Sequence record: PQ850622.1
Origin: Escherichia phage OliverMaurmann_Bas86
Length of the DNA stretch: 64,000 nucleotides
Direction: 5' to 3' (one strand)
The position numbers and the translations under genes were made by a program. Below the pieces are notes generated by a model. It searched no databases, was not told the DNA's origin, and saw nothing but the letters and a program-made list of their open reading frames with translations. Shown here piece after piece: positions 2,465 through 22,907 of this stretch. How positions within the stretch are numbered: position 1 is the stretch's first letter; every line of letters starts with the position of its first letter.

Positions 2465-3268
2465 TTGGCTATCGAAACAACTGCGGTAGTTACTACCGAT
2501 TTAAACCCCCTATACCCACGGGACAGGGACTACCTTTATGAAGGGGCTGCCCAGATACGACTGGTCAAACAAGTCTTAATTAACACTTTCCCTAACATCA
2601 CAGAGCCGGTTCAACTTGACTCAGATTCTTTCAACATCCTAGCAAACAAGGTCTCTTTTACTGGAGACTCTATGGACGTTGGTGGTTTGATGATTAAGAA
2701 CCTAACTCCGGGAACTGGTGATAAAGATGCTGTAACCAAAGGTCAGATGGAAGCTTTCATGTTGAATTGGATGCAAAATAAACTATACCGTATTGGTTCT
2801 TATTACATCACTGAGGAAGATATTAATCCGGGAGACTCCAGCTCTCTTGGCTTCGGTTCTTGGGCTAAAGTAACTGGTGTTGTTATGGGTACTGGTGTTG
2901 TTAACCCTGACGGTTCTGTTCCTAACGCCCAGCGTGTGGAATTCCAAGCAGGTGGTACAGGAGGTCGTGTATTCAACACAATCCGTGCTGATAATATGCC
3001 TCTTACTACAATCAATGGTTCTAGTTTCCAAGTCAGTTCTTATTCCCACTCGCACAACATCACGATGGGTCGAGGTGATGCTAGTGGTCACAATAGCAGC
3101 CCTAATTGGTATAGTCCGGGTGGTGGTTACACTCAGGTAACTGACACCAACACTCACTCCCACTCAATCACAGGTTCTGTTAGTTTTGGGCGTGATGATG
3201 TATCAAGACAACCTATCAACACTTTGCCGCCTTTCAGAGCAGCGCATATTTGGAGACGTATTAGCTAA
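2465..3268 (+). CDS. tail fibre-like protein with His-rich C-terminal repeats (TTG start)
   Basis: SD GGAGGTG 5 nt upstream of TTG; HSHSHNITMG...HSHSITG motifs resemble metal-binding HxH repeats of tail fibre tips. Confidence 0.4.
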   Translation: MAIETTAVVTTDLNPLYPRDRDYLYEGAAQIRLVKQVLINTFPNITEPVQLDSDSFNILANKVSFTGDSMDVGGLMIKNLTPGTGDKDAVTKGQMEAFMLNWMQNKLYRIGSYYITEEDINPGDSSSLGFGSWAKVTGVVMGTGVVNPDGSVPNAQRVEFQAGGTGGRVFNTIRADNMPLTTINGSSFQVSSYSHSHNITMGRGDASGHNSSPNWYSPGGGYTQVTDTNTHSHSITGSVSFGRDDVSRQPINTLPPFRAAHIWRRIS

Positions 3269-7318: not shown

Positions 7319-8350
7319 ATGGCTTATGGAATATGGTGTCAACCTGTAGGACCGGGACCAGCTTCCCCAGCTCCTCTCTTTATTGATAGCGGAAGCACTT
7401 TTCCTCAAATAAAAAATTCAATAAGTGGGAGTTTCAACTTTAACGGGGCTGGTAGATCTTTTCCTATTAGTGGGTGGGATGGGAGTGGTCAAATAGTGAT
7501 TGTACCAACAGGCTCTCTTTGTTGGCAATGGGAGGTTCCTCCTAATTTAGTTCCTGATGTATATTGTGTCAACAATATCTATGTAGAGAATAACACATCA
7601 TTCAGGGTTACATTAAACCAAAACCCGGGAAGCAACCCTTTGTTTGACTGTGGTTTCAATGTATATCAAATCTACCCAAGAGCTGATAGGAACTATGGAA
7701 TAACCTTCTCTAATACAGCTGATTATTTCTCTATCTCAGATGCTGGGATTGTGGGTCAATGCATCTGGGCTTGGCAAGGAACTATAAACAACGCTCTACA
7801 GATACCTGATATTGGTGGTTTCTATATGCCTAATGCTGTAGTTTTTGCTAACTGGTCTGATGGTGGTGTTGGTTTATCTTATACATCAGGAGATAGGGTG
7901 ATTCGAGTTTATCAAAACAGGTCTTATAACAATGGCAACACTAATGAAGGTGGTTCTGTGTTTGCTAGGGTTGCTGTATTTTGTAATGGTGCTGGGGTTC
8001 CTGAACACAACGGCGGTTTAAATATATACTCTCCCGGAACTACTCAGTGCGTATTCTCTACTTATAGGTCTCCTTTTACAGTAGACACTTTCGTAGGCTC
8101 AGCAGGTGGAAATACTGGCTTAGCTTATCCTATGATTCCTCTGTCTTCTGGAGTTGGAGCTATCAGAGGAAGTGGGAGTGGTTGGTATTATCAACAAATG
8201 CGTTCTCATACCATGTCAGGGTCTTCAATAGGAACTGGATATGGTAGATATATGTTCCAATGGTCTAATAGTTATGACTTAGGTTCTAATGCTGCTGTTA
8301 ATATCTCCATCCCTGTAATCAACGCTGCTAAGATTTTTGCAGGTTTATGA
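7319..8350 (+). CDS. virion structural protein (unknown function)
   Basis: 343 aa ORF tightly packed in the structural operon; Gly/Ser/Asn-rich. Confidence 0.4.
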   Translation: MAYGIWCQPVGPGPASPAPLFIDSGSTFPQIKNSISGSFNFNGAGRSFPISGWDGSGQIVIVPTGSLCWQWEVPPNLVPDVYCVNNIYVENNTSFRVTLNQNPGSNPLFDCGFNVYQIYPRADRNYGITFSNTADYFSISDAGIVGQCIWAWQGTINNALQIPDIGGFYMPNAVVFANWSDGGVGLSYTSGDRVIRVYQNRSYNNGNTNEGGSVFARVAVFCNGAGVPEHNGGLNIYSPGTTQCVFSTYRSPFTVDTFVGSAGGNTGLAYPMIPLSSGVGAIRGSGSGWYYQQMRSHTMSGSSIGTGYGRYMFQWSNSYDLGSNAAVNISIPVINAAKIFAGL

Positions 8351-12907: not shown

Positions 12908-12916
12908 TAATGTATA
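12908..12916 (+). promoter_or_regulatory. candidate phage-specific promoter element TAATGTATA (overlaps a TATAAT hexamer)
   Basis: Intergenic TATAATGTATATAGG about 40 nt upstream of the 12953 ATG; the same 9-mer recurs at 22828 and 22899. Confidence 0.45.
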
Positions 12917-15900: not shown

Positions 15901-17398
15901 TACCTATAACCGAGAAGTTAACATGTTCAACAAGGCTAACAAGAACTCTCAATACGAAGCAGCGGCTAAACACTTGCAAGCACGTCAAGAACGTCTTGAG
16001 ACGCTCCGTAACAGAGCTAAGGCTCGTAATGATGCCAAGGCAGCTATGGAAGCTGAAAAGCAGTCATTGGAAGCTATAGCGGCTCAGAAATCCGAGATGG
16101 AGAAGATGTTCAAAGAGTTGCCTGAAAGTGTCAGAGAAGCTCAGGAAGGTCGTACTTTGAAACAGCTTGCTGCTCACCACGATAAAAACTCTCCAGTACC
16201 ACCAGAGCGTTTCCGTAGTATTATTGAACGTATTCACAACGCTGAGAGTGATTACCTCGATCGCAAACGTCGTTTGACCGAAGCAGAGGAAGATGCTCGT
16301 GAGGCTAAGTGGAATAGGATGTATGAACAGGCTGAGGAAATGAACCGTAGGTTTGATATTGATTCTAGAGTGAAGAGAGACAAGGCTCTGAAAGAAGCTC
16401 AGGAACGAGAGAATGACCTAATGGCAGTTCAACGTCAACGTGATGACATTCATAAACGTTTAGTCAACACTCTGGAAGAGAAGGGGGTTTCTAGAGAGGA
16501 TGCTGAAGCGTATGCTGGTTCTTATATGGACAATCGGTATGCTTTGTTAGAGAAACCTATGACTCCAGTGGAACATCAGAATGCTCGTGCTCGTATCGAA
16601 TCTGACGTAGAGAAGTTTGTTAAGAAGTATGAAACAGCTACTCCAATCGAAAGAGAGATTGCTAAGGCAACTGGTGATGCAGATGGGAAAGCTTCTGACC
16701 TTGATGCAGAAACAGCAAAAGCTATCGAAGATGCTCGTAAAGTTGATTCTGATTTTAAGAAACTTTTAGATGAAGAGAAAGAAATGGAGAAGATTCGTTC
16801 GGCTCTACCTGAGGATGAAAGATCTCAGGCTAACTCTGATATTCTTGAAAGTATTAAGAAGCAGGAAGATGACTTTGCTAACAAAGCAGAGAAAGCTTTT
16901 ATTGAAGGGAAAGACTTGCAGGAGTTGGCGAGTGTTGCAGAGGTTCTAGATAGGGTTCATGGTGCAGATAAGGCTGGTAACAACCGTCGATTTGTACGTG
17001 CTCTACAGACTGCTGCTGAGAACAAGAAACGTTATGGAGATAATCCAGTGGCTTGGTTTAGTGCTGATGATTATTCTGCTATTGCGAAACTTGGTGCTGC
17101 TTCGGCAGGTGGTAACAAATCTCGAGCACTTGAGAAAATCTTTGGTTCTACAGCAGAACAAGCTAAAGGGAAACTTTTAGGGAGGGATGATGTAGCTAAG
17201 ATTAGACGTGTGATTGAAGCGAATCCTAATGCTAAGATTCCTTCTTACAAGACAACTACTCGACAAGAGTATTTACAGTTCTTGGAGAAGTATAATGATG
17301 AGGGAGAGTTGAAAGTCAAACGTGGTTCTCTGTCTGACAAGTTAGAAAGGGGTAAGCGTCAAGCTAAACTTCGTGTTAGAGTTCGAGCTAAGGAGTAA
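12953..17398 (+). CDS. large internal virion / DNA-ejection protein
   Basis: 1481 aa, Ala/Gly-rich N-terminus then long E/K/R/A-rich coiled-coil; last gene of the structural operon; RBS AAGGAG. Confidence 0.5.
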   Translation: MANLKSWEEASKAPAYLNASPEQQAQMREQYKAAGGTIPETQPQEQPQQEERGVIGEFAQGVSNALQSGGANIAASAAKGLGGLVEIGENLTGSETSYGKRIQENSKQLLEERLSKIEDGFGKTAGQYAGVAADIGLTVANPAVAAAVIAARETGRAYADQTPKEDEDKSILDAALVGGANYAAQKILPGMTGTASTTLGRVGQSVASNAVAGAKGGAIVGAAEAQNKYGDDTTLANVLEGAIEEGALGAAYGGAIGGVHGLISRPSPQVFDRTPEHVKTDIAAEDEAIRKAANADELREAYAKAENANAASALNLLDENGFRITDAVAMDSPAVQRILNTDQNRAEKAATVQKDSSNVPGLNPLASPKKTQGKAFADNEYNQKQAVAMKDAMADYTKDNTKALTDVLDNLDRELVALRASGDFTGSAIDIKNRTQADRDFIDAYKTFYSEANRFKARDGEDLNNFIDKATQLQKLSENVSPEMKKAIGGLKKLKGMPEGFNPIQDAFTLNNTAKFMSNQDRGWTSLTDDGFREAPAPVLVKNPLGAAKYVLNRFTSDRARAQREKQQSANSEAIRSLARADLEVQRARTQAEEARAKMEEEPTTEDIKFRTQNDAPSEPVREEPSATTVTEEIPSSPAPTETPLTARDLVAQRRALQQAELRRQETEAAQAQESATPEPEPQQEALTARELVAQRRAVAEAKKRQEAEEAERAKEAPEEAVEEPKEKPEPLPARAPKAPEKAPEPVKPSLGVERLASMSTAARQATKDRADRFARSLYSAAAKAKATAENFLSYKGDPKELMRRIRQEDQANNTQRHEEMARNQLASQQGIASAKSQHVRASFADWVKERGLPSDIATKALRAEEKGLGGNVTSLDSLKRRAERLYQKQRDDEFDRLYREALEENKAFDKKDAPKLVDQKKELQDEIGTLLDAEPLRPAQKDAMRKIMEDFVESKFKSSEKAGRVEALEVGQMKDVWDGFINTYNREVNMFNKANKNSQYEAAAKHLQARQERLETLRNRAKARNDAKAAMEAEKQSLEAIAAQKSEMEKMFKELPESVREAQEGRTLKQLAAHHDKNSPVPPERFRSIIERIHNAESDYLDRKRRLTEAEEDAREAKWNRMYEQAEEMNRRFDIDSRVKRDKALKEAQERENDLMAVQRQRDDIHKRLVNTLEEKGVSREDAEAYAGSYMDNRYALLEKPMTPVEHQNARARIESDVEKFVKKYETATPIEREIAKATGDADGKASDLDAETAKAIEDARKVDSDFKKLLDEEKEMEKIRSALPEDERSQANSDILESIKKQEDDFANKAEKAFIEGKDLQELASVAEVLDRVHGADKAGNNRRFVRALQTAAENKKRYGDNPVAWFSADDYSAIAKLGAASAGGNKSRALEKIFGSTAEQAKGKLLGRDDVAKIRRVIEANPNAKIPSYKTTTRQEYLQFLEKYNDEGELKVKRGSLSDKLERGKRQAKLRVRVRAKE

Positions 17399-17407
17399 AC
17401 AAGAAAA

Positions 17408-17444
17408 GCCCCCAACCTGAAAAGGAAGGGGGCTTCTTTATTTC
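17408..17444. terminator. bidirectional terminator between convergent operons
   Basis: GCCCCC-(14 nt loop)-GGGGGC flanked by A-run upstream and TTCTTTATTTC downstream; sits between the + gene ending 17398 and the - gene ending 17496. Confidence 0.55.
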
Positions 17445-17495
17445 TAGATGTTAGAATCCATCGAATTCATCATACATCCCAATTTTCTTCTTCAA

Positions 17496-17762
17496 TCACA
17501 AGACCTCCCAATCATCTGCAAACAAATCACCCTGAGATGGAACCCATCCGGGTTGCATAATACCCTGAGCATTCTTTAAGTCTAAATGAGGGGCGATGAC
17601 GAATCGACCAGTGATGCCAGCTTTTTCATAATCAGAACCCGGTCGAGCTTCTTCTACTTCATATCCACCTTCTTTGATGATGAACTGATTTGCACCATTC
17701 CAACCAGAGCGAGCAATCCTCTTCCCTTCTTTTACTTTAATAAGCGCTGAACTGAAATCCAT
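17496..17762 (-). CDS. DUF2829-like protein (family that includes the Thoeris anti-defence protein Tad2)
   Basis: MDFSSALIKVKEGKRIARSGWNG ... HLDLKNAQGIMQPGWVPSQGDLFADDWEVL matches the DUF2829 pattern. Confidence 0.5.
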   Translation of the reverse strand: MDFSSALIKVKEGKRIARSGWNGANQFIIKEGGYEVEEARPGSDYEKAGITGRFVIAPHLDLKNAQGIMQPGWVPSQGDLFADDWEVL

Positions 17763-17770
17763 TTGTTCTC

Positions 17771-18073
17771 CTAGATTAAATCGTAATACTTAATAATATC
17801 AGAGAGCTTAAACTCTCGAATGTCATTCTTATCATTGTCCCAAGCGGTCATTATCCAACAAGGTTTGCCCCCATTATGATAACGGGAAGAAGCAACTGAG
17901 GTTCGTAAAGGAATAACGGAGCGGTCTGCAATCTCGCCTCTCCAATTACGATAGCTAAAGCGAAGAACTTGTTTCGTAGATACTTGATCATGTGTGTTTT
18001 CCTTGTTCATAGATTCAAAGATTTCCCTTTCTTCAGGAGTCTCTAGATTTTTTAAATTCGCGTCTTGCATCAT
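17771..18073 (-). CDS. hypothetical protein
   Basis: 100 aa ORF; start may be internal given overlap with the next gene. Confidence 0.3.
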   Translation of the reverse strand: MMQDANLKNLETPEEREIFESMNKENTHDQVSTKQVLRFSYRNWRGEIADRSVIPLRTSVASSRYHNGGKPCWIMTAWDNDKNDIREFKLSDIIKYYDLI

Positions 18074-18437
18074 TCTCTTCCTTAGTTTTTATCTTATGGC
18101 AAGGCTCTTTGCATAAGACTTGAAAACCATCTTTCTCAACTAAAGCCCTCTCGATGATTTCATCCCAAGTAGCTTCATGGTCCACTGGGACAATAGGCTC
18201 TATATGGTCTACTGCTACGTCTTTAAGAGGAGAATCATTACCACACATAGCACACTTATAGTGCATTGCCAGTTTGCCAGTTTTAGGGTTGATTTTACGT
18301 TCTGTCTGAGCCTCTTTGAGAGAATCAAACATAGGTTTCCATTTCCTAGTCAGAGAACGAATCCCTGACTTAATGAAGGAGTTATAACGTGCTTCAGTCC
18401 ACTGACCAGAGCATCTTGTCTTCTCAGCTTTCGCCAT
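18033..18437 (-). CDS. HNH endonuclease
   Basis: CAMCG...VDHIEPI...LCKEPCH zinc-binding HNH motif. Confidence 0.55.
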   Translation of the reverse strand: MAKAEKTRCSGQWTEARYNSFIKSGIRSLTRKWKPMFDSLKEAQTERKINPKTGKLAMHYKCAMCGNDSPLKDVAVDHIEPIVPVDHEATWDEIIERALVEKDGFQVLCKEPCHKIKTKEENDARREFKKSRDS

Positions 18438-19471: not shown

Positions 19472-20036
19472 TAATCCACTCTAAATCATCAACTGCCTCT
19501 TCTACAGAACGGTCATTAAAGAGGAGGTAGGTTGGTAGGTTTGTTCCTTCAATATAAGAACGGGAGTCCCCTTCAAAGGAGCAGCCATCTCGGAGAATCT
19601 GAACTACTCGAACATAGAAGTGTTTCTCTAGTTCTTCAACTTCAGCTTTGAACCCACCATCAGAGAAGACGATAACATCATTCTGTGATGGGATACGTTG
19701 TTGAATACTGCTAACAGCAAGTTTACCCATGCAGGTCTCACCAAACATAGGTTTCAGATAATCCTCACTAGTTGCAATCATCAAGTCTCGAACTGACTTA
19801 CCGCCCCATTCAGGACGGATATGTTCTTTCCACTCACGGTCGTTGTACAGCTCCATGAACTTATAAAGAGGGAGACCTAATGCAGCAGCAGCCACCCGAT
19901 ACATAGGCTCCTTAAAAGCCTTTACATGCGGTCTAAACTCAGTGTTACCAGCGGTCTTCTCTAACCAAGCATTAGCGATTGTATCTTTACCACAACCCGG
20001 AGGTCCATTTAGAATTACTACTAATGGTTTACTCAT
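19440..20036 (-). CDS. P-loop nucleotide kinase (dNMP kinase-like)
   Basis: Walker A VVILNGPPGCGKDT; overall layout resembles T4 gene-1-type dNMP kinases. Confidence 0.5.
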   Translation of the reverse strand: MSKPLVVILNGPPGCGKDTIANAWLEKTAGNTEFRPHVKAFKEPMYRVAAAALGLPLYKFMELYNDREWKEHIRPEWGGKSVRDLMIATSEDYLKPMFGETCMGKLAVSSIQQRIPSQNDVIVFSDGGFKAEVEELEKHFYVRVVQILRDGCSFEGDSRSYIEGTNLPTYLLFNDRSVEEAVDDLEWIIEETRRDLYV

Positions 20037-20686
20037 TATTGAATCATCCCTTGAAGATCTTCTTTATCAAAGTGCTTCTCTACTACCGCTTCATACAGAT
20101 CACGATTCTCCGAATAACGGCGATAGAAGGTTCCGTGTGAAATTCCCAGCTCTTGTTGGATGTGATCATGAGGAATACCGAGGAAGAGCATTGAGAACAT
20201 ACTTGCCATCTTGCGGTTTTCCATAATATCACTTAGGTCTTGGAAGAAGAAAAAGATTCTAGATTCCAAGAATGGGTCTCCAGTAGAATCATGCTTATCC
20301 ATAGCAATCTCTAAAGGACTTTCCCATGAATTCATCTCGGGAGGTCTAAACATATCAGCCTCTGGAATAGAATAGATACGTCTGTCTCCAACTGTCTGAC
20401 GATTAGAACGAATCGACCAGATGATATTCTTCACACGATAAGTCATGTGTTCAATATCTTTTTCATCGGTAAGCAGTAGTTCTTCTTGCTTTGCAAATAC
20501 AAAACGCCAAGAGTTCAGTAACACTTCCTGAGCAACATCCTCTGCTTCGTGATAATCTTTAATGTCGTACATAAAATACTTATGCACAACTTTCCAATTC
20601 TCTCGATAGAATTCATCGAAGGTTGGGTAGTACTTAATAGGTATGCCATGAATACGATAGCGTGTGGGTGTTGTCTTTTTCTTCAT
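20036..20686 (-). CDS. phage-encoded sigma factor (ECF-like sigma-70 family)
   Basis: Region-2-like [13 protein letters not shown] and C-terminal region-4-like [18 protein letters not shown]. Confidence 0.6.
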
Positions 20687-20710
20687 AAGTCATCCTTAAC
20701 TTACTTTACA

Positions 20711-20935
20711 TTAAACTACACAGAATAAATACATTGCTGTTTCAGGGGAAGGTATGTGGTCACTAGGATATCTAACCCTAATCCACTCATCATCTTCTGC
20801 TACATAATAAGCCCAATAAGACCCATTTTCATTAATAAAGAACTTGAAGGTACAACCAAAGATTTGGTTATTGTGTTCCCATACTGCATGAAACTGAGTA
20901 ACACCTTCTGGTATTGTAAGTTCCGCTCTGATCAT
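20711..20935 (-). CDS. hypothetical protein
   Basis: 74 aa ORF. Confidence 0.3.
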   Translation of the reverse strand: MIRAELTIPEGVTQFHAVWEHNNQIFGCTFKFFINENGSYWAYYVAEDDEWIRVRYPSDHIPSPETAMYLFCVV

Positions 20936-22827: not shown

Positions 22828-22836
22828 TATACATTA
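22828..22836 (-). promoter_or_regulatory. candidate phage-specific promoter element TAATGTATA (reverse strand)
   Basis: - strand reads TAATGTATATAGTATAC about 60 nt upstream of ATG 22768. Confidence 0.45.
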
Positions 22837-22898: not shown

Positions 22899-22907
22899 TA
22901 ATGTATA
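22899..22907 (+). promoter_or_regulatory. candidate promoter element TAATGTATATA (forward strand, divergent from 22828)
   Basis: GTAGTAATGTATATATGG on + strand; no + strand ORF downstream. Confidence 0.35.

What the first reader, a model, noticed from the sequence alone, without database searches (positions are those of the whole stretch)
17496..17762. DUF2829/Tad2-like small protein: candidate anti-Thoeris sponge
The 88-aa product (MDFSSALIKVKEGKRIARSGWNG...HLDLKNAQGIMQPGWVPSQGDLFADDWEVL) matches the DUF2829 pattern as I remember it. That family includes Tad2, reported to sequester the Thoeris signalling nucleotide. It is the last gene of the leftward operon and is followed by a bidirectional terminator.
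Basis: partly seen in the sequence, partly recalled or inferred. Interest (0 to 1): 0.65.

Follow-up and report, generated by a model that had tools for sequence, protein, structure and literature searches.

The report
Tad2-family immune-signal sponge in coliphage
This small gene of a phiEco32-like E. coli phage is a clear member of the well-known Tad2 (DUF2829) family of phage proteins that soak up bacterial immune alarm molecules, so it is a correct but fairly ordinary find, and which alarm molecule it binds is still untested.

Summary
The 88-aa ORF at 17496-17762 (- strand) is real. It has an AGGAG ribosome-binding site, it is the last gene of the leftward operon, and a bidirectional hairpin terminator follows it. 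It matches Pfam PF11195 'Tad2-like' over the full length (81.7 bits against a cut-off of 25). A high-confidence AlphaFold model (pLDDT 94.9) hits only solved Tad2 structures (TM 0.65-0.82), and the next hits fall to E about 1. Orthologs are under purifying selection (dN/dS 0.07-0.16).

The family-wide pocket core is intact: W21, N22, W73, S76 and D79. The adenine-side and water-coordinating positions differ from SPO1 Tad2 (N64, Q66, P71, G78). These differences define a large subfamily and do not indicate a damaged pocket. The HgmTad2-type cyclic-dinucleotide pocket is not conserved.

The window is a Gordonclarkvirinae (phiEco32-like) coliphage. Only about 7 of about 98 related genomes carry the gene, as a cassette between conserved junctions. 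E. coli does encode types I, II and IV Thoeris.

The most likely function is sequestering an ADP-ribose-derived TIR signal. Ligand identity and tetramer formation are untested. This is a new member of a known kind, of modest interest.

The parts
17496..17762 (-). Tad2-like (DUF2829) coding sequence, 88 aa plus stop. It is one domain covering the whole protein. The predicted topology is helix 3-11, strands 16-18, 27-31, 34-36, short helix 44-47, strands 54-56, 59-63, 69-71, helix 77-81, strand 85-87.
   Evidence: ORF. Pfam PF11195 at 81.7 bits, E 5.6e-23. PHROG 1048 and 872. PDB Tad2 hits. AF2 model pLDDT 94.9. Foldseek top 24 hits are all Tad2. dN/dS 0.07-0.16.
17768..17772 (-). Shine-Dalgarno AGGAG, 5 nt upstream of the ATG. 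It overlaps the TAG stop (17771-17773) of the upstream WYL-domain gene, so the two genes are tightly packed and probably co-transcribed.
   Evidence: Read directly from the sequence.
17397..17443 (.). Bidirectional intrinsic terminator hairpin (GCCCCC...GGGGGC stem with an A-run on one side and a U-run on the other). It lies between the convergent late (rightward) and middle (leftward) transcription units.
   Evidence: strand folding -26.4 kcal/mol, z -3.8. The homologous element is annotated as a terminator on both strands in SU7 and 4E8. It was missed by the simple terminator scan because the loop has an inner helix.
17452..17495 (-). Conserved downstream junction of the cassette. It is a remnant of the 3' end of a phi32_27-type ORF (...EENWDV*), retained in phages with and without the Tad2-like gene.
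   Evidence: Alignments with Bas87 and SU7 and with phiEco32. phi32_27 translates to ...SEENWDV*. In ShigP1 the Tad2-like ORF reads through into this tail.
17771..18073 (-). Upstream neighbour, a small WYL-domain protein (100 aa) conserved across the subfamily. Its 3' end forms the conserved upstream junction of the cassette. It is context only and was not shown to act with the Tad2-like protein.
   Evidence: Pfam PF13280 WYL at 26.7 bits against a cut-off of 21.8. Homologs are present in SU7, PAS59, ShigP1 and phiEco32, whether or not the Tad2-like gene is present.
20705..20713 (-). Candidate phage-sigma (gp36-type) promoter element TAATGTAAA (8 of 9 matches to tAATGTAtA), about 19 nt upstream of the sigma-factor gene that heads the gene string ending in the Tad2-like gene. 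This is a candidate only.
   Evidence: Motif taken from PMC8948821. Pattern search: one-mismatch matches are not enriched overall (27 found, 19.4 expected), so the site rests on its position alone.

Best explanation
The gene encodes a Tad2-family 'sponge'. This is a small protein that, like its solved relatives, should assemble into a homotetramer with two symmetric pockets formed between protomers. The sponge binds and sequesters, without degrading, a nucleotide-derived immune signal made by the host on infection, so the host effector is never switched on. The most likely ligand class is an ADP-ribose-derived TIR/Thoeris signal. 3'cADPR of type I Thoeris is the single likeliest, and His-ADPR (type II) or N7-cADPR (type IV) are possible. 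The gene is transcribed leftward with the phage's middle-class replication and sigma-factor genes and is the last gene before a bidirectional terminator. It is an accessory cassette that only a minority of related phages carry, which fits a host-range or counter-defence gene and not a core function. Shown here: the gene is real and under selection, family membership, predicted fold, conservation of the core pocket residues, cassette structure, and operon position. Inferred: tetramer formation, ligand binding, ligand identity, timing of expression, and the anti-defence phenotype.
For: The Pfam Tad2-like match covers the full length and is far above threshold. A profile of the clade hits all solved Tad2 proteins at 3e-18 to 1e-14. 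The AF2 model (pLDDT 94.9) matches ModTad2, SptTad2, HgmTad2 and SPO1 Tad2 at TM 0.65-0.82, and the next hits fall to E about 1. The residues that make the main van der Waals and polar contacts to ribose and phosphate in SPO1 Tad2 are W25, N26, W73, S76 and D79 (10.1101/2023.05.01.538930). They are identical here (W21, N22, W73, S76, D79) and invariant or nearly so in 150 diverse family representatives. dN/dS is 0.07-0.16, and substitutions concentrate in the variable beta2-beta3 insertion, not the pocket. Base rates support activity: 4 of 5 diverse Tad2 homologs inhibited type I Thoeris, and 65 of 84 sponge homologs were active against at least one of 7 signalling systems. The host species carries type I and II Thoeris plus other TIR systems (PMC11350192) and type IV Thoeris. 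The gene is present in about 7 of about 98 related genomes, between conserved junctions. The homologous leftward cluster is middle class in phiEco32 (PMC8948821).
Against: There is no experimental datum for this protein or for any member of its subfamily (motif N64-Q66-P71-G78) that I could find. Four SPO1 Tad2 pocket positions differ: T65 to N, D67 to Q, H71 to P and T78 to G. T78 gives the one hydrogen bond to adenine in SPO1 Tad2. Specificity within the family cannot be predicted from phylogenetic proximity, since ModTad2 does not block type I Thoeris. 19 of 84 tested sponges blocked none of seven systems. Oligomeric state could not be modelled with the tools available. Middle-class expression is extrapolated from phiEco32. 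A sponge might be expected to be made early, and no promoter was mapped here.
Confidence: 0.7

Rival explanations
1. It is a Tad2-fold sponge, but its cognate ligand is a not yet identified TIR-derived signal. One source would be the E. coli TIR systems whose messengers are unknown. The clade-specific adenine-side pocket (N64, Q66, P71, G78) would be tuned to that molecule.
For: The four differing pocket positions are invariant or nearly so within the clade, and the combination N-Q-P-G recurs in 50 of 150 representatives, so it is a selected pocket variant. E. coli has 12 active TIR systems, most with an unknown signal. About a quarter of tested sponges hit none of seven known systems, and the authors suggest undiscovered ligands for some of them.
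Against: The ribose and phosphate contact core is unchanged. Position 78 varies freely (G, A, S, T) in a family where most tested members bind 3'cADPR. Nothing positive points to a new ligand.
Confidence: 0.15
2. Its main target is a cyclic-nucleotide signal of CBASS (cGG or 3'3'-cGAMP) or Pycsar (cCMP or cUMP). The ligand would bind in the second pocket at the A-C protomer interface, as in HgmTad2, SptTad2 and MoTad2.
For: Family members do this. The best sequence hit in the PDB is SptTad2, solved with cGG. The model has flanking strands 34-36 and 54-56, reminiscent of the extended insertion described for ModTad2. CBASS and Pycsar occur in E. coli; the tested Pycsar came from E. coli E831.
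Against: The validated HgmTad2 CDN determinants S47, F70 and R31/N85 align to A39, I56 and E31/P71 here (compared). The beta2-beta3 insertion is about 28 residues, against the 35-41 residues reported as needed for CDN binding. This region is the least conserved part among orthologs and is largely deleted in the ShigP1 copy.
Confidence: 0.08
3. It is an AcrIIA7-like anti-CRISPR that acts against type II CRISPR-Cas9.
For: AcrIIA7 carries the same domain and appears among the PDB hits (8kbi, 9kzr).
Against: Li et al. found no Cas9 inhibition by HgmTad2/AcrIIA7 or other Tad2 homologs, in vitro or in vivo. From general knowledge, E. coli carries type I-E and I-F CRISPR systems, not type II.
Confidence: 0.02
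4. It is a DUF2829-fold protein with a role unrelated to defence, or a passenger cassette of no consequence to this phage.
For: GenBank annotates it as a hypothetical protein in every relative. The same slot elsewhere holds selfish HNH homing endonucleases or unrelated tiny ORFs, so the locus tolerates arbitrary cargo. Many family members are fused to diverse N-terminal domains.
Against: Strong purifying selection and strict conservation of the ligand-contact core argue for a maintained binding function. Every characterised member of the fold is a signal sponge.
Confidence: 0.05

Closest known systems
SPO1 Tad2 (gp34.65; PDB 8SME, 8SMF, 8SMG), the founding anti-Thoeris sponge that binds 1''-3' gcADPR (3'cADPR)
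   Same: Same Pfam domain, same size (88 against 89 aa), same predicted fold (TM about 0.7). The W-N motif in the beta1-beta2 loop and the W..S..D motif before the C-terminal helix are identical. Both are stand-alone small phage genes.
   Different: Only about 30% identity. The adenine-side and water-coordinating positions differ (T65 to N, D67 to Q, H71 to P, T78 to G). The host is a Gram-negative enterobacterium and the phage a podovirus. This protein is not experimentally characterised.
ModTad2 / MoTad2 (PDB 9EIB, 8V3E), which binds His-ADPR (type II Thoeris) in the canonical pocket and cUMP/cCMP (Pycsar) in a second pocket
   Same: Best structural match (Foldseek E 6.7e-08, TM 0.78). Nearly the same length, aligning with only two short gaps. 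The W-N and W.PS..D core is the same.
   Different: The residue before the invariant D is S in ModTad2 and G here. The segment preceding the second W differs (DNDIA-TW against QGIMQPGW). The residues of the cUMP pocket are not given in the text I could read, so that pocket could not be compared.
HgmTad2 (= AcrIIA7; PDB 8KBI to 8KBM) and SptTad2 (8WJD), dual sponges for gcADPR plus cGG/3'3'-cGAMP
   Same: Same domain and the same canonical pocket core (W21/N22 carry the same numbers). SptTad2 is the best sequence hit in the PDB.
   Different: They carry a 35-41-residue insertion that builds the CDN pocket, and here the insertion is about 28 residues. The validated CDN contacts S47, F70, R31 and N85 are not conserved (A39, I56, E31, P71).
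Tad1 and Acb2, unrelated phage sponge families
   Same: The same proposed mechanism: a small homo-oligomer that sequesters an immune signal without degrading it.
   Different: Different folds and no sequence relationship. No hits to them were obtained.

Membership tests
Tad2 / DUF2829 (Pfam PF11195) | Significant full-length match to the family profile, above the curated gathering score | tested here: met
   81.7 bits against a cut-off of 25, E 5.6e-23, profile positions 1-73 of 73. All 75 close homologs carry PF11195.
Tad2 / DUF2829 (Pfam PF11195) | Tad2 fold: an N-terminal helix, an antiparallel beta-sheet, a variable insertion with a short helix after beta2, and a short helix between the last two strands | tested here: met
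   On a predicted, not solved, structure. AF2 pLDDT 94.9 with that order of elements. The 24 best PDB matches are all Tad2 chains, TM 0.65-0.82, and then E about 1.
Tad2 / DUF2829 (Pfam PF11195) | Canonical pocket core residues (SPO1 W25, N26, W73, S76, D79; HgmTad2 W21/N22 and S90/D93) | tested here: met
   W21, N22, W73, S76 and D79 are present. In 150 diverse representatives: W21, W73 and D79 in 150, N22 in 147, S76 in 141.
Tad2 / DUF2829 (Pfam PF11195) | Adenine-side and water-coordinating residues of SPO1 Tad2 (I63, T65, D67, H71, T78) | tested here: not met
   Here they are L62, N64, Q66, P71 and G78. These positions vary across the family (position 78: G 84, A 19, S 19, T 16). They therefore mark subfamilies and do not define the family. 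Their absence bears on ligand specificity, not on membership.
Tad2 / DUF2829 (Pfam PF11195) | Homotetramer (dimer of V- or X-shaped dimers) with two inter-protomer pockets | not testable with these tools
   The structure tool models single chains only. Helix alpha1, which mediates tetramerisation in the solved structures, is predicted with high confidence.
Tad2 / DUF2829 (Pfam PF11195) | Binds and sequesters a TIR-derived signal (3'cADPR, His-ADPR or N7-cADPR) without degrading it | not testable with these tools
   Requires purified protein and ligand. No published data were found for this clade.
Tad2 / DUF2829 (Pfam PF11195) | Rescues phage from Thoeris in vivo | not testable with these tools
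   The BASEL paper that characterises Bas87 never mentions Thoeris (0 occurrences of the word).
HgmTad2/SptTad2-type dual sponge (extra CDN pocket) | Long beta2-beta5 insertion (35-41 residues) with CDN contacts R31, S47, F70 and N85 | tested here: not met
   The insertion is about 28 residues. The aligned residues are E31, A39, I56 and P71 (one search compared). Alignment within the insertion is less certain than elsewhere.
AcrIIA7 anti-CRISPR | Inhibition of type II-A Cas9 | not tested
   It shares the domain. The activity itself is disputed, and this host species is not known to carry type II CRISPR (general knowledge).

The most novel reading that the evidence does not exclude
The N64-Q66-P71-G78 pocket variant, invariant in this enterobacterial clade and common across the family, may be tuned to a TIR-derived signalling molecule that has not yet been identified, for example from one of the E. 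coli TIR systems whose messenger is unknown. The protein could then serve as bait to capture and identify that molecule, as Tad1 and ModTad2 did for 3'cADPR and His-ADPR.
Probability: 0.15. Interest if true: 0.6.

Novelty: new member of a known kind. Interest (0 to 1): 0.3.

Why it matters
If active, this gene would be the first counter-defence gene noted in the poorly studied Gordonclarkvirinae (phiEco32-like) coliphages, which are often isolated for phage therapy. It would help explain host-range differences among near-identical phages. There is a ready-made test set. The BASEL collection phages Bas87 and Bas88 carry the gene, and Bas90 and Bas91 do not. All of them grow on E. coli K-12 with restored O-antigen, and E. 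coli types I, II and IV Thoeris have already been cloned. The clade also represents a large, uncharacterised pocket variant of the Tad2 family, so determining its ligand would fill a gap in the map of sponge specificity. It does not change what is known about how sponges work.

Tried and rejected
1. I suspected that phiEco32's two tiny ORFs in the same slot (35 + 53 = 88 aa) were a broken Tad2 copy. Translation and alignment show they are unrelated.

2. I suspected that the '...EENWDV*' reading frame just after the stop codon was a fossil of a second DUF2829 C-terminus. It is in fact the conserved 3' end of a phi32_27-type ORF and marks the cassette junction.

3. I asked whether the other occupants of the slot are anti-defence genes, which would make it an anti-defence island. 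They are HNH homing endonucleases or unrelated small ORFs. So the locus is an insertion hotspot, not demonstrably an anti-defence island.

4. I tested whether the macro-domain gene phi32_37 and the Tad2-like gene are mutually exclusive. Six of seven Tad2-like carriers lack the macro gene, but ShigP1 has both and SU7 has neither. The pattern follows lineage.

5. I looked for the sequences and results of the 18 Tad2 homologs screened in PMC12393519, to place this clade among them. No supplementary files are held.

6. A literature search joining Tad2 with Kuravirus, Gordonclarkvirinae, phiEco32 or Bas87 found no paper containing both.

7. A DNA search of 5,426 complete E. coli genomes found no prophage copy.

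8. The simple sigma-70 and terminator scan gave nothing useful near the gene. The terminator had to be shown by folding.

9. The phage-sigma promoter motif with one mismatch is not enriched in the window (27 found, 19.4 expected), so promoter assignments remain tentative.

Full report
**Observation.** An AGGAG sits 5 nt upstream of the ATG and overlaps the TAG stop of the preceding gene. The ORF is the last in a leftward string: sigma factor (20036-20686), dNMP kinase, 5'-3' exonuclease, a 63-aa ORF, an HNH endonuclease, a small WYL-domain protein, then this gene. Downstream it meets the end of a 1481-aa rightward gene. Between the two lies a GC-rich hairpin (17397-17443) flanked by an A-run and a U-run. 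It folds at -26.4 kcal/mol with z = -3.8, and none of 200 shuffles fold as well. The homologous element is annotated as a terminator on both strands in phages SU7 and 4E8.

**The gene is real.** The five full-length orthologs I recovered from related phages give dN/dS of 0.07-0.16 in all ten pairs. Amino-acid changes concentrate between residues 28 and 60, and the N- and C-terminal motifs do not change.

**Family.**
- Pfam PF11195, now named 'Thoeris anti-defense 2-like domain', matches positions 1-73 of 73 at 81.7 bits against a gathering score of 25, E = 5.6e-23.
- PHROGs 1048 and 872, both of unknown function, match at 1e-23 and 1e-21.
- A single-sequence search of PDB sequences finds SptTad2 (4.6e-10), HgmTad2/AcrIIA7, SPO1 Tad2 and ModTad2 (about 1e-8), and the next hits are noise.
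- A profile of 33 clade members raises these to between 3e-18 and 1e-14.
- An AlphaFold2 model built on that alignment has mean pLDDT 94.9. It shows the published Tad2 order of elements: an N-terminal helix, a beta-sheet, a short helix in the insertion, and a short helix between the last strands.
- Foldseek against the PDB returns 24 hits at E below 1e-5. All are Tad2 chains (ModTad2 9EIB, SptTad2 8WJD, HgmTad2 8KBI/J/K, SPO1 Tad2 8SME/F/G and 8WJE) with TM 0.65-0.82. The next hit has E = 0.98.

Membership in the family is as secure as computation can make it.

**Pocket.** Yirmiya et al. list the SPO1 Tad2 contacts to 1''-3' gcADPR. W25 and W73 give van der Waals contacts. N26 and D79 contact phosphates and hydroxyls. 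T78 gives a hydrogen bond to adenine, I63 and T65 give non-polar contacts to adenine, and D67, H71 and S76 coordinate waters. Li et al. abolish gcADPR binding in HgmTad2 with W21A/N22A and with S90A/T92A/D93A.

By the HMMER alignments, this protein has W21, N22, W73, S76 and D79, identical to SPO1. It has L62 for I63, which is conservative. It differs at N64 (T65), Q66 (D67), P71 (H71) and G78 (T78). Within the 33-member clade, N64 and P71 are invariant, and Q66 and G78 are conserved in at least 90% of sequences.

To see whether this means a damaged pocket, I ran the clade profile against 1.84 billion cluster representatives. It found 6,445 proteins at E of 0.001 or better. In the best 150, W21, W73, D79 and W85 are present in all 150, N22 in 147, and S76 in 141 (plus 8 T). 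Position 78 is G in 84, A in 19, S in 19 and T in 16, and the N-Q-P-G combination occurs in 50. That sample is biased towards my profile. Even so, it shows that the core is universal and that the adenine-side positions are naturally variable. This protein therefore belongs to a large pocket subfamily and is not a degenerate copy.

**Second pocket.** HgmTad2 and SptTad2 bind cGG/cGAMP through a 35-41-residue insertion, with validated contacts R31, S47, F70 and N85. Here the insertion is about 28 residues, and the aligned residues are E31, A39, I56 and P71. That pocket type is therefore not conserved. The caveat is that alignment inside the insertion is less reliable. MoTad2 binds cUMP at the same interface, but the residues involved are not given in the text I could read, so a Pycsar-type pocket cannot be excluded.

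**Genome context.** The 3-kb region is 96-97% identical to Escherichia phages EK010, E20-1 and AnnaHegner_Bas87, and it matches 98 records, almost all Gordonclarkvirinae (Kuravirus, Suseptimavirus and relatives). In all of them the gene, when present, is annotated 'hypothetical protein'.

Only EK010 (two records), E20-1, Bas87, Bas88, NC-B, TH43 and, more distantly, ShigP1 carry it. No complete E. coli genome carries a DNA-level copy. The next closest homologs, at 68-80% identity, are in unrelated phages and in prophages of Yersinia, Klebsiella, Pectobacterium, Xenorhabdus, Cronobacter and Moellerella, which indicates horizontal spread.

Alignments show a cassette bounded by two conserved junctions:
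- The upstream junction is the end of the WYL gene.
- The downstream junction is a remnant of the 3' end of a phi32_27-type ORF (...EENWDV*).

Between these junctions, different phages hold different cargo:
- SU7 has non-coding filler.
- phiEco32 has two unrelated small ORFs.
- PAS59 has an HNH_3 homing endonuclease.
- ShigP1 has a Tad2-like gene with most of the insertion deleted, plus an HNH gene.

The slot is therefore an insertion hotspot. I could not show that it is specifically an anti-defence island.

**Expression.** In phiEco32 the leftward cluster with the polymerase, nucleotide-metabolism and sigma genes is middle class. Promoters for the phage sigma factor share the element tAATGTAtA and were mapped upstream of genes 26 and 40, among others (PMC8948821). 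A perfect TAATGTATA lies at 12908-12916 (+), just upstream of the 1481-aa homolog of phi32_26. A perfect copy lies at 22828-22836 (-), and an 8-of-9 copy at 20705-20713 (-) sits just upstream of the sigma gene. The motif is not statistically enriched at one mismatch. I therefore infer middle-class, operon-embedded expression only by homology.

**Host side.** A survey of 2,289 E. coli genomes found 781 TIR proteins in 64 clusters. Type II Thoeris is cluster 1 and type I Thoeris is cluster 9, and ten further TIR systems were active, most with unknown signals (PMC11350192). Type IV Thoeris was cloned from E. coli 328. A Thoeris-type target is thus plausible in this phage's host.

**Mechanism and confidence.** Every characterised member of this fold is a signal sponge:
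- SPO1 Tad2 binds 3'cADPR and 2'cADPR.
- ModTad2 binds His-ADPR and cUMP/cCMP.
- HgmTad2 and SptTad2 bind gcADPR plus cGG/cGAMP.
- Tad2_71 binds N7-cADPR and 3'cADPR.

Four of five diverse homologs blocked type I Thoeris, and 65 of 84 sponge homologs blocked at least one of seven systems. With the core pocket intact, I put about 0.97 on family membership and about 0.7 on the statement that this protein sequesters an ADP-ribose-derived TIR signal. I put about 0.4-0.5 on 3'cADPR specifically. The rivals are an unidentified TIR signal (0.15), a cyclic-nucleotide target (0.08), a non-defence or passenger role (0.05) and an anti-CRISPR role (0.02). The anti-CRISPR activity itself was not reproduced by Li et al..

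**Novelty and interest.** However, the family is very large, its Pfam entry already bears the Tad2 name, and UniRef already labels a 78%-identical homolog 'Thoeris anti-defense 2-like'. What is new is modest:
- The gene has not been noted in Gordonclarkvirinae.
- It is a rare cassette there.
- Its pocket subfamily has no characterised member that I could find.
- BASEL phages with the gene (Bas87, Bas88) and without it (Bas90, Bas91) provide an immediate test panel.

I rate it a new member of a known kind, with interest 0.3.

Noticed in passing
window 17771-18073 (-): A small stand-alone WYL-domain protein (100 aa; Pfam WYL 26.7 bits against a cut-off of 21.8) lies immediately upstream, and its stop codon overlaps the Tad2-like gene's ribosome-binding site. 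Unlike the Tad2-like gene, it is conserved across the subfamily (SU7, PAS59, ShigP1, phiEco32 gp29). WYL domains are ligand or nucleic-acid sensors usually found in regulators of bacterial defence systems. A minimal phage-encoded one is unexplained.
   Followed up: partly
L008 (phiEco32) 7834-8274 (-); window 20711-20935 (-): phiEco32 and about 41 relatives carry a macro-domain ('Appr-1-p processing') gene next to the sigma-factor gene. This window has an unrelated 74-aa ORF there instead. Six of the seven Tad2-like carriers lack the macro gene, but ShigP1 has both and SU7 has neither, so the pattern follows lineage and is not strictly complementary. Both genes would act on ADP-ribose-derived molecules.
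   Followed up: partly
L007 (Shigella phage ShigP1) 2463-2723 (-): The ShigP1 copy of the Tad2-like gene has lost most of the beta2-beta3 insertion, and it reads through into the phi32_27-type tail (...DDWEVYMIDFEEENWDV*). It still scores 86.5 bits on PF11195. This is a natural minimal variant that keeps both pocket motifs.
   Followed up: partly
L003 (Salmonella phage vB_SalP_TR2, Schitoviridae) 2020-2403 and 2995-3267 (+): An unrelated N4-like phage carries two DUF2829 genes about 600 bp apart in its early region. One is 68% identical to the protein studied here. Two paralogs in one phage may mean two ligand specificities.
   Followed up: no
window 18033-18437 (-), overlapping 17771-18073: An HNH endonuclease gene (PHROG 3106, E 2e-37) overlaps the start of the WYL ORF by 41 nt. 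Several related records annotate it as 'terminase small subunit', which looks like a propagated misannotation. Related phages have extra HNH_3 and AP2 homing-endonuclease genes inserted at several points in this operon (PAS59).
   Followed up: partly
window 12908-12916 (+) and 22828-22836 (-), 22899-22907 (+): There are three perfect copies of the phiEco32 sigma-gp36 promoter element TAATGTATA. One lies just upstream of the 1481-aa late gene (homolog of phi32_26), where a promoter was mapped experimentally in phiEco32. The pair near 22.8-22.9 kb lies on opposite strands about 70 bp apart.
   Followed up: no
P0076-P0224: Most of the 150 best family representatives are 130-290 aa long and carry varied N-terminal extensions in front of the DUF2829 domain. 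A few have two or three tandem DUF2829 domains (for example P0135). The role of the extensions is unknown.
   Followed up: no
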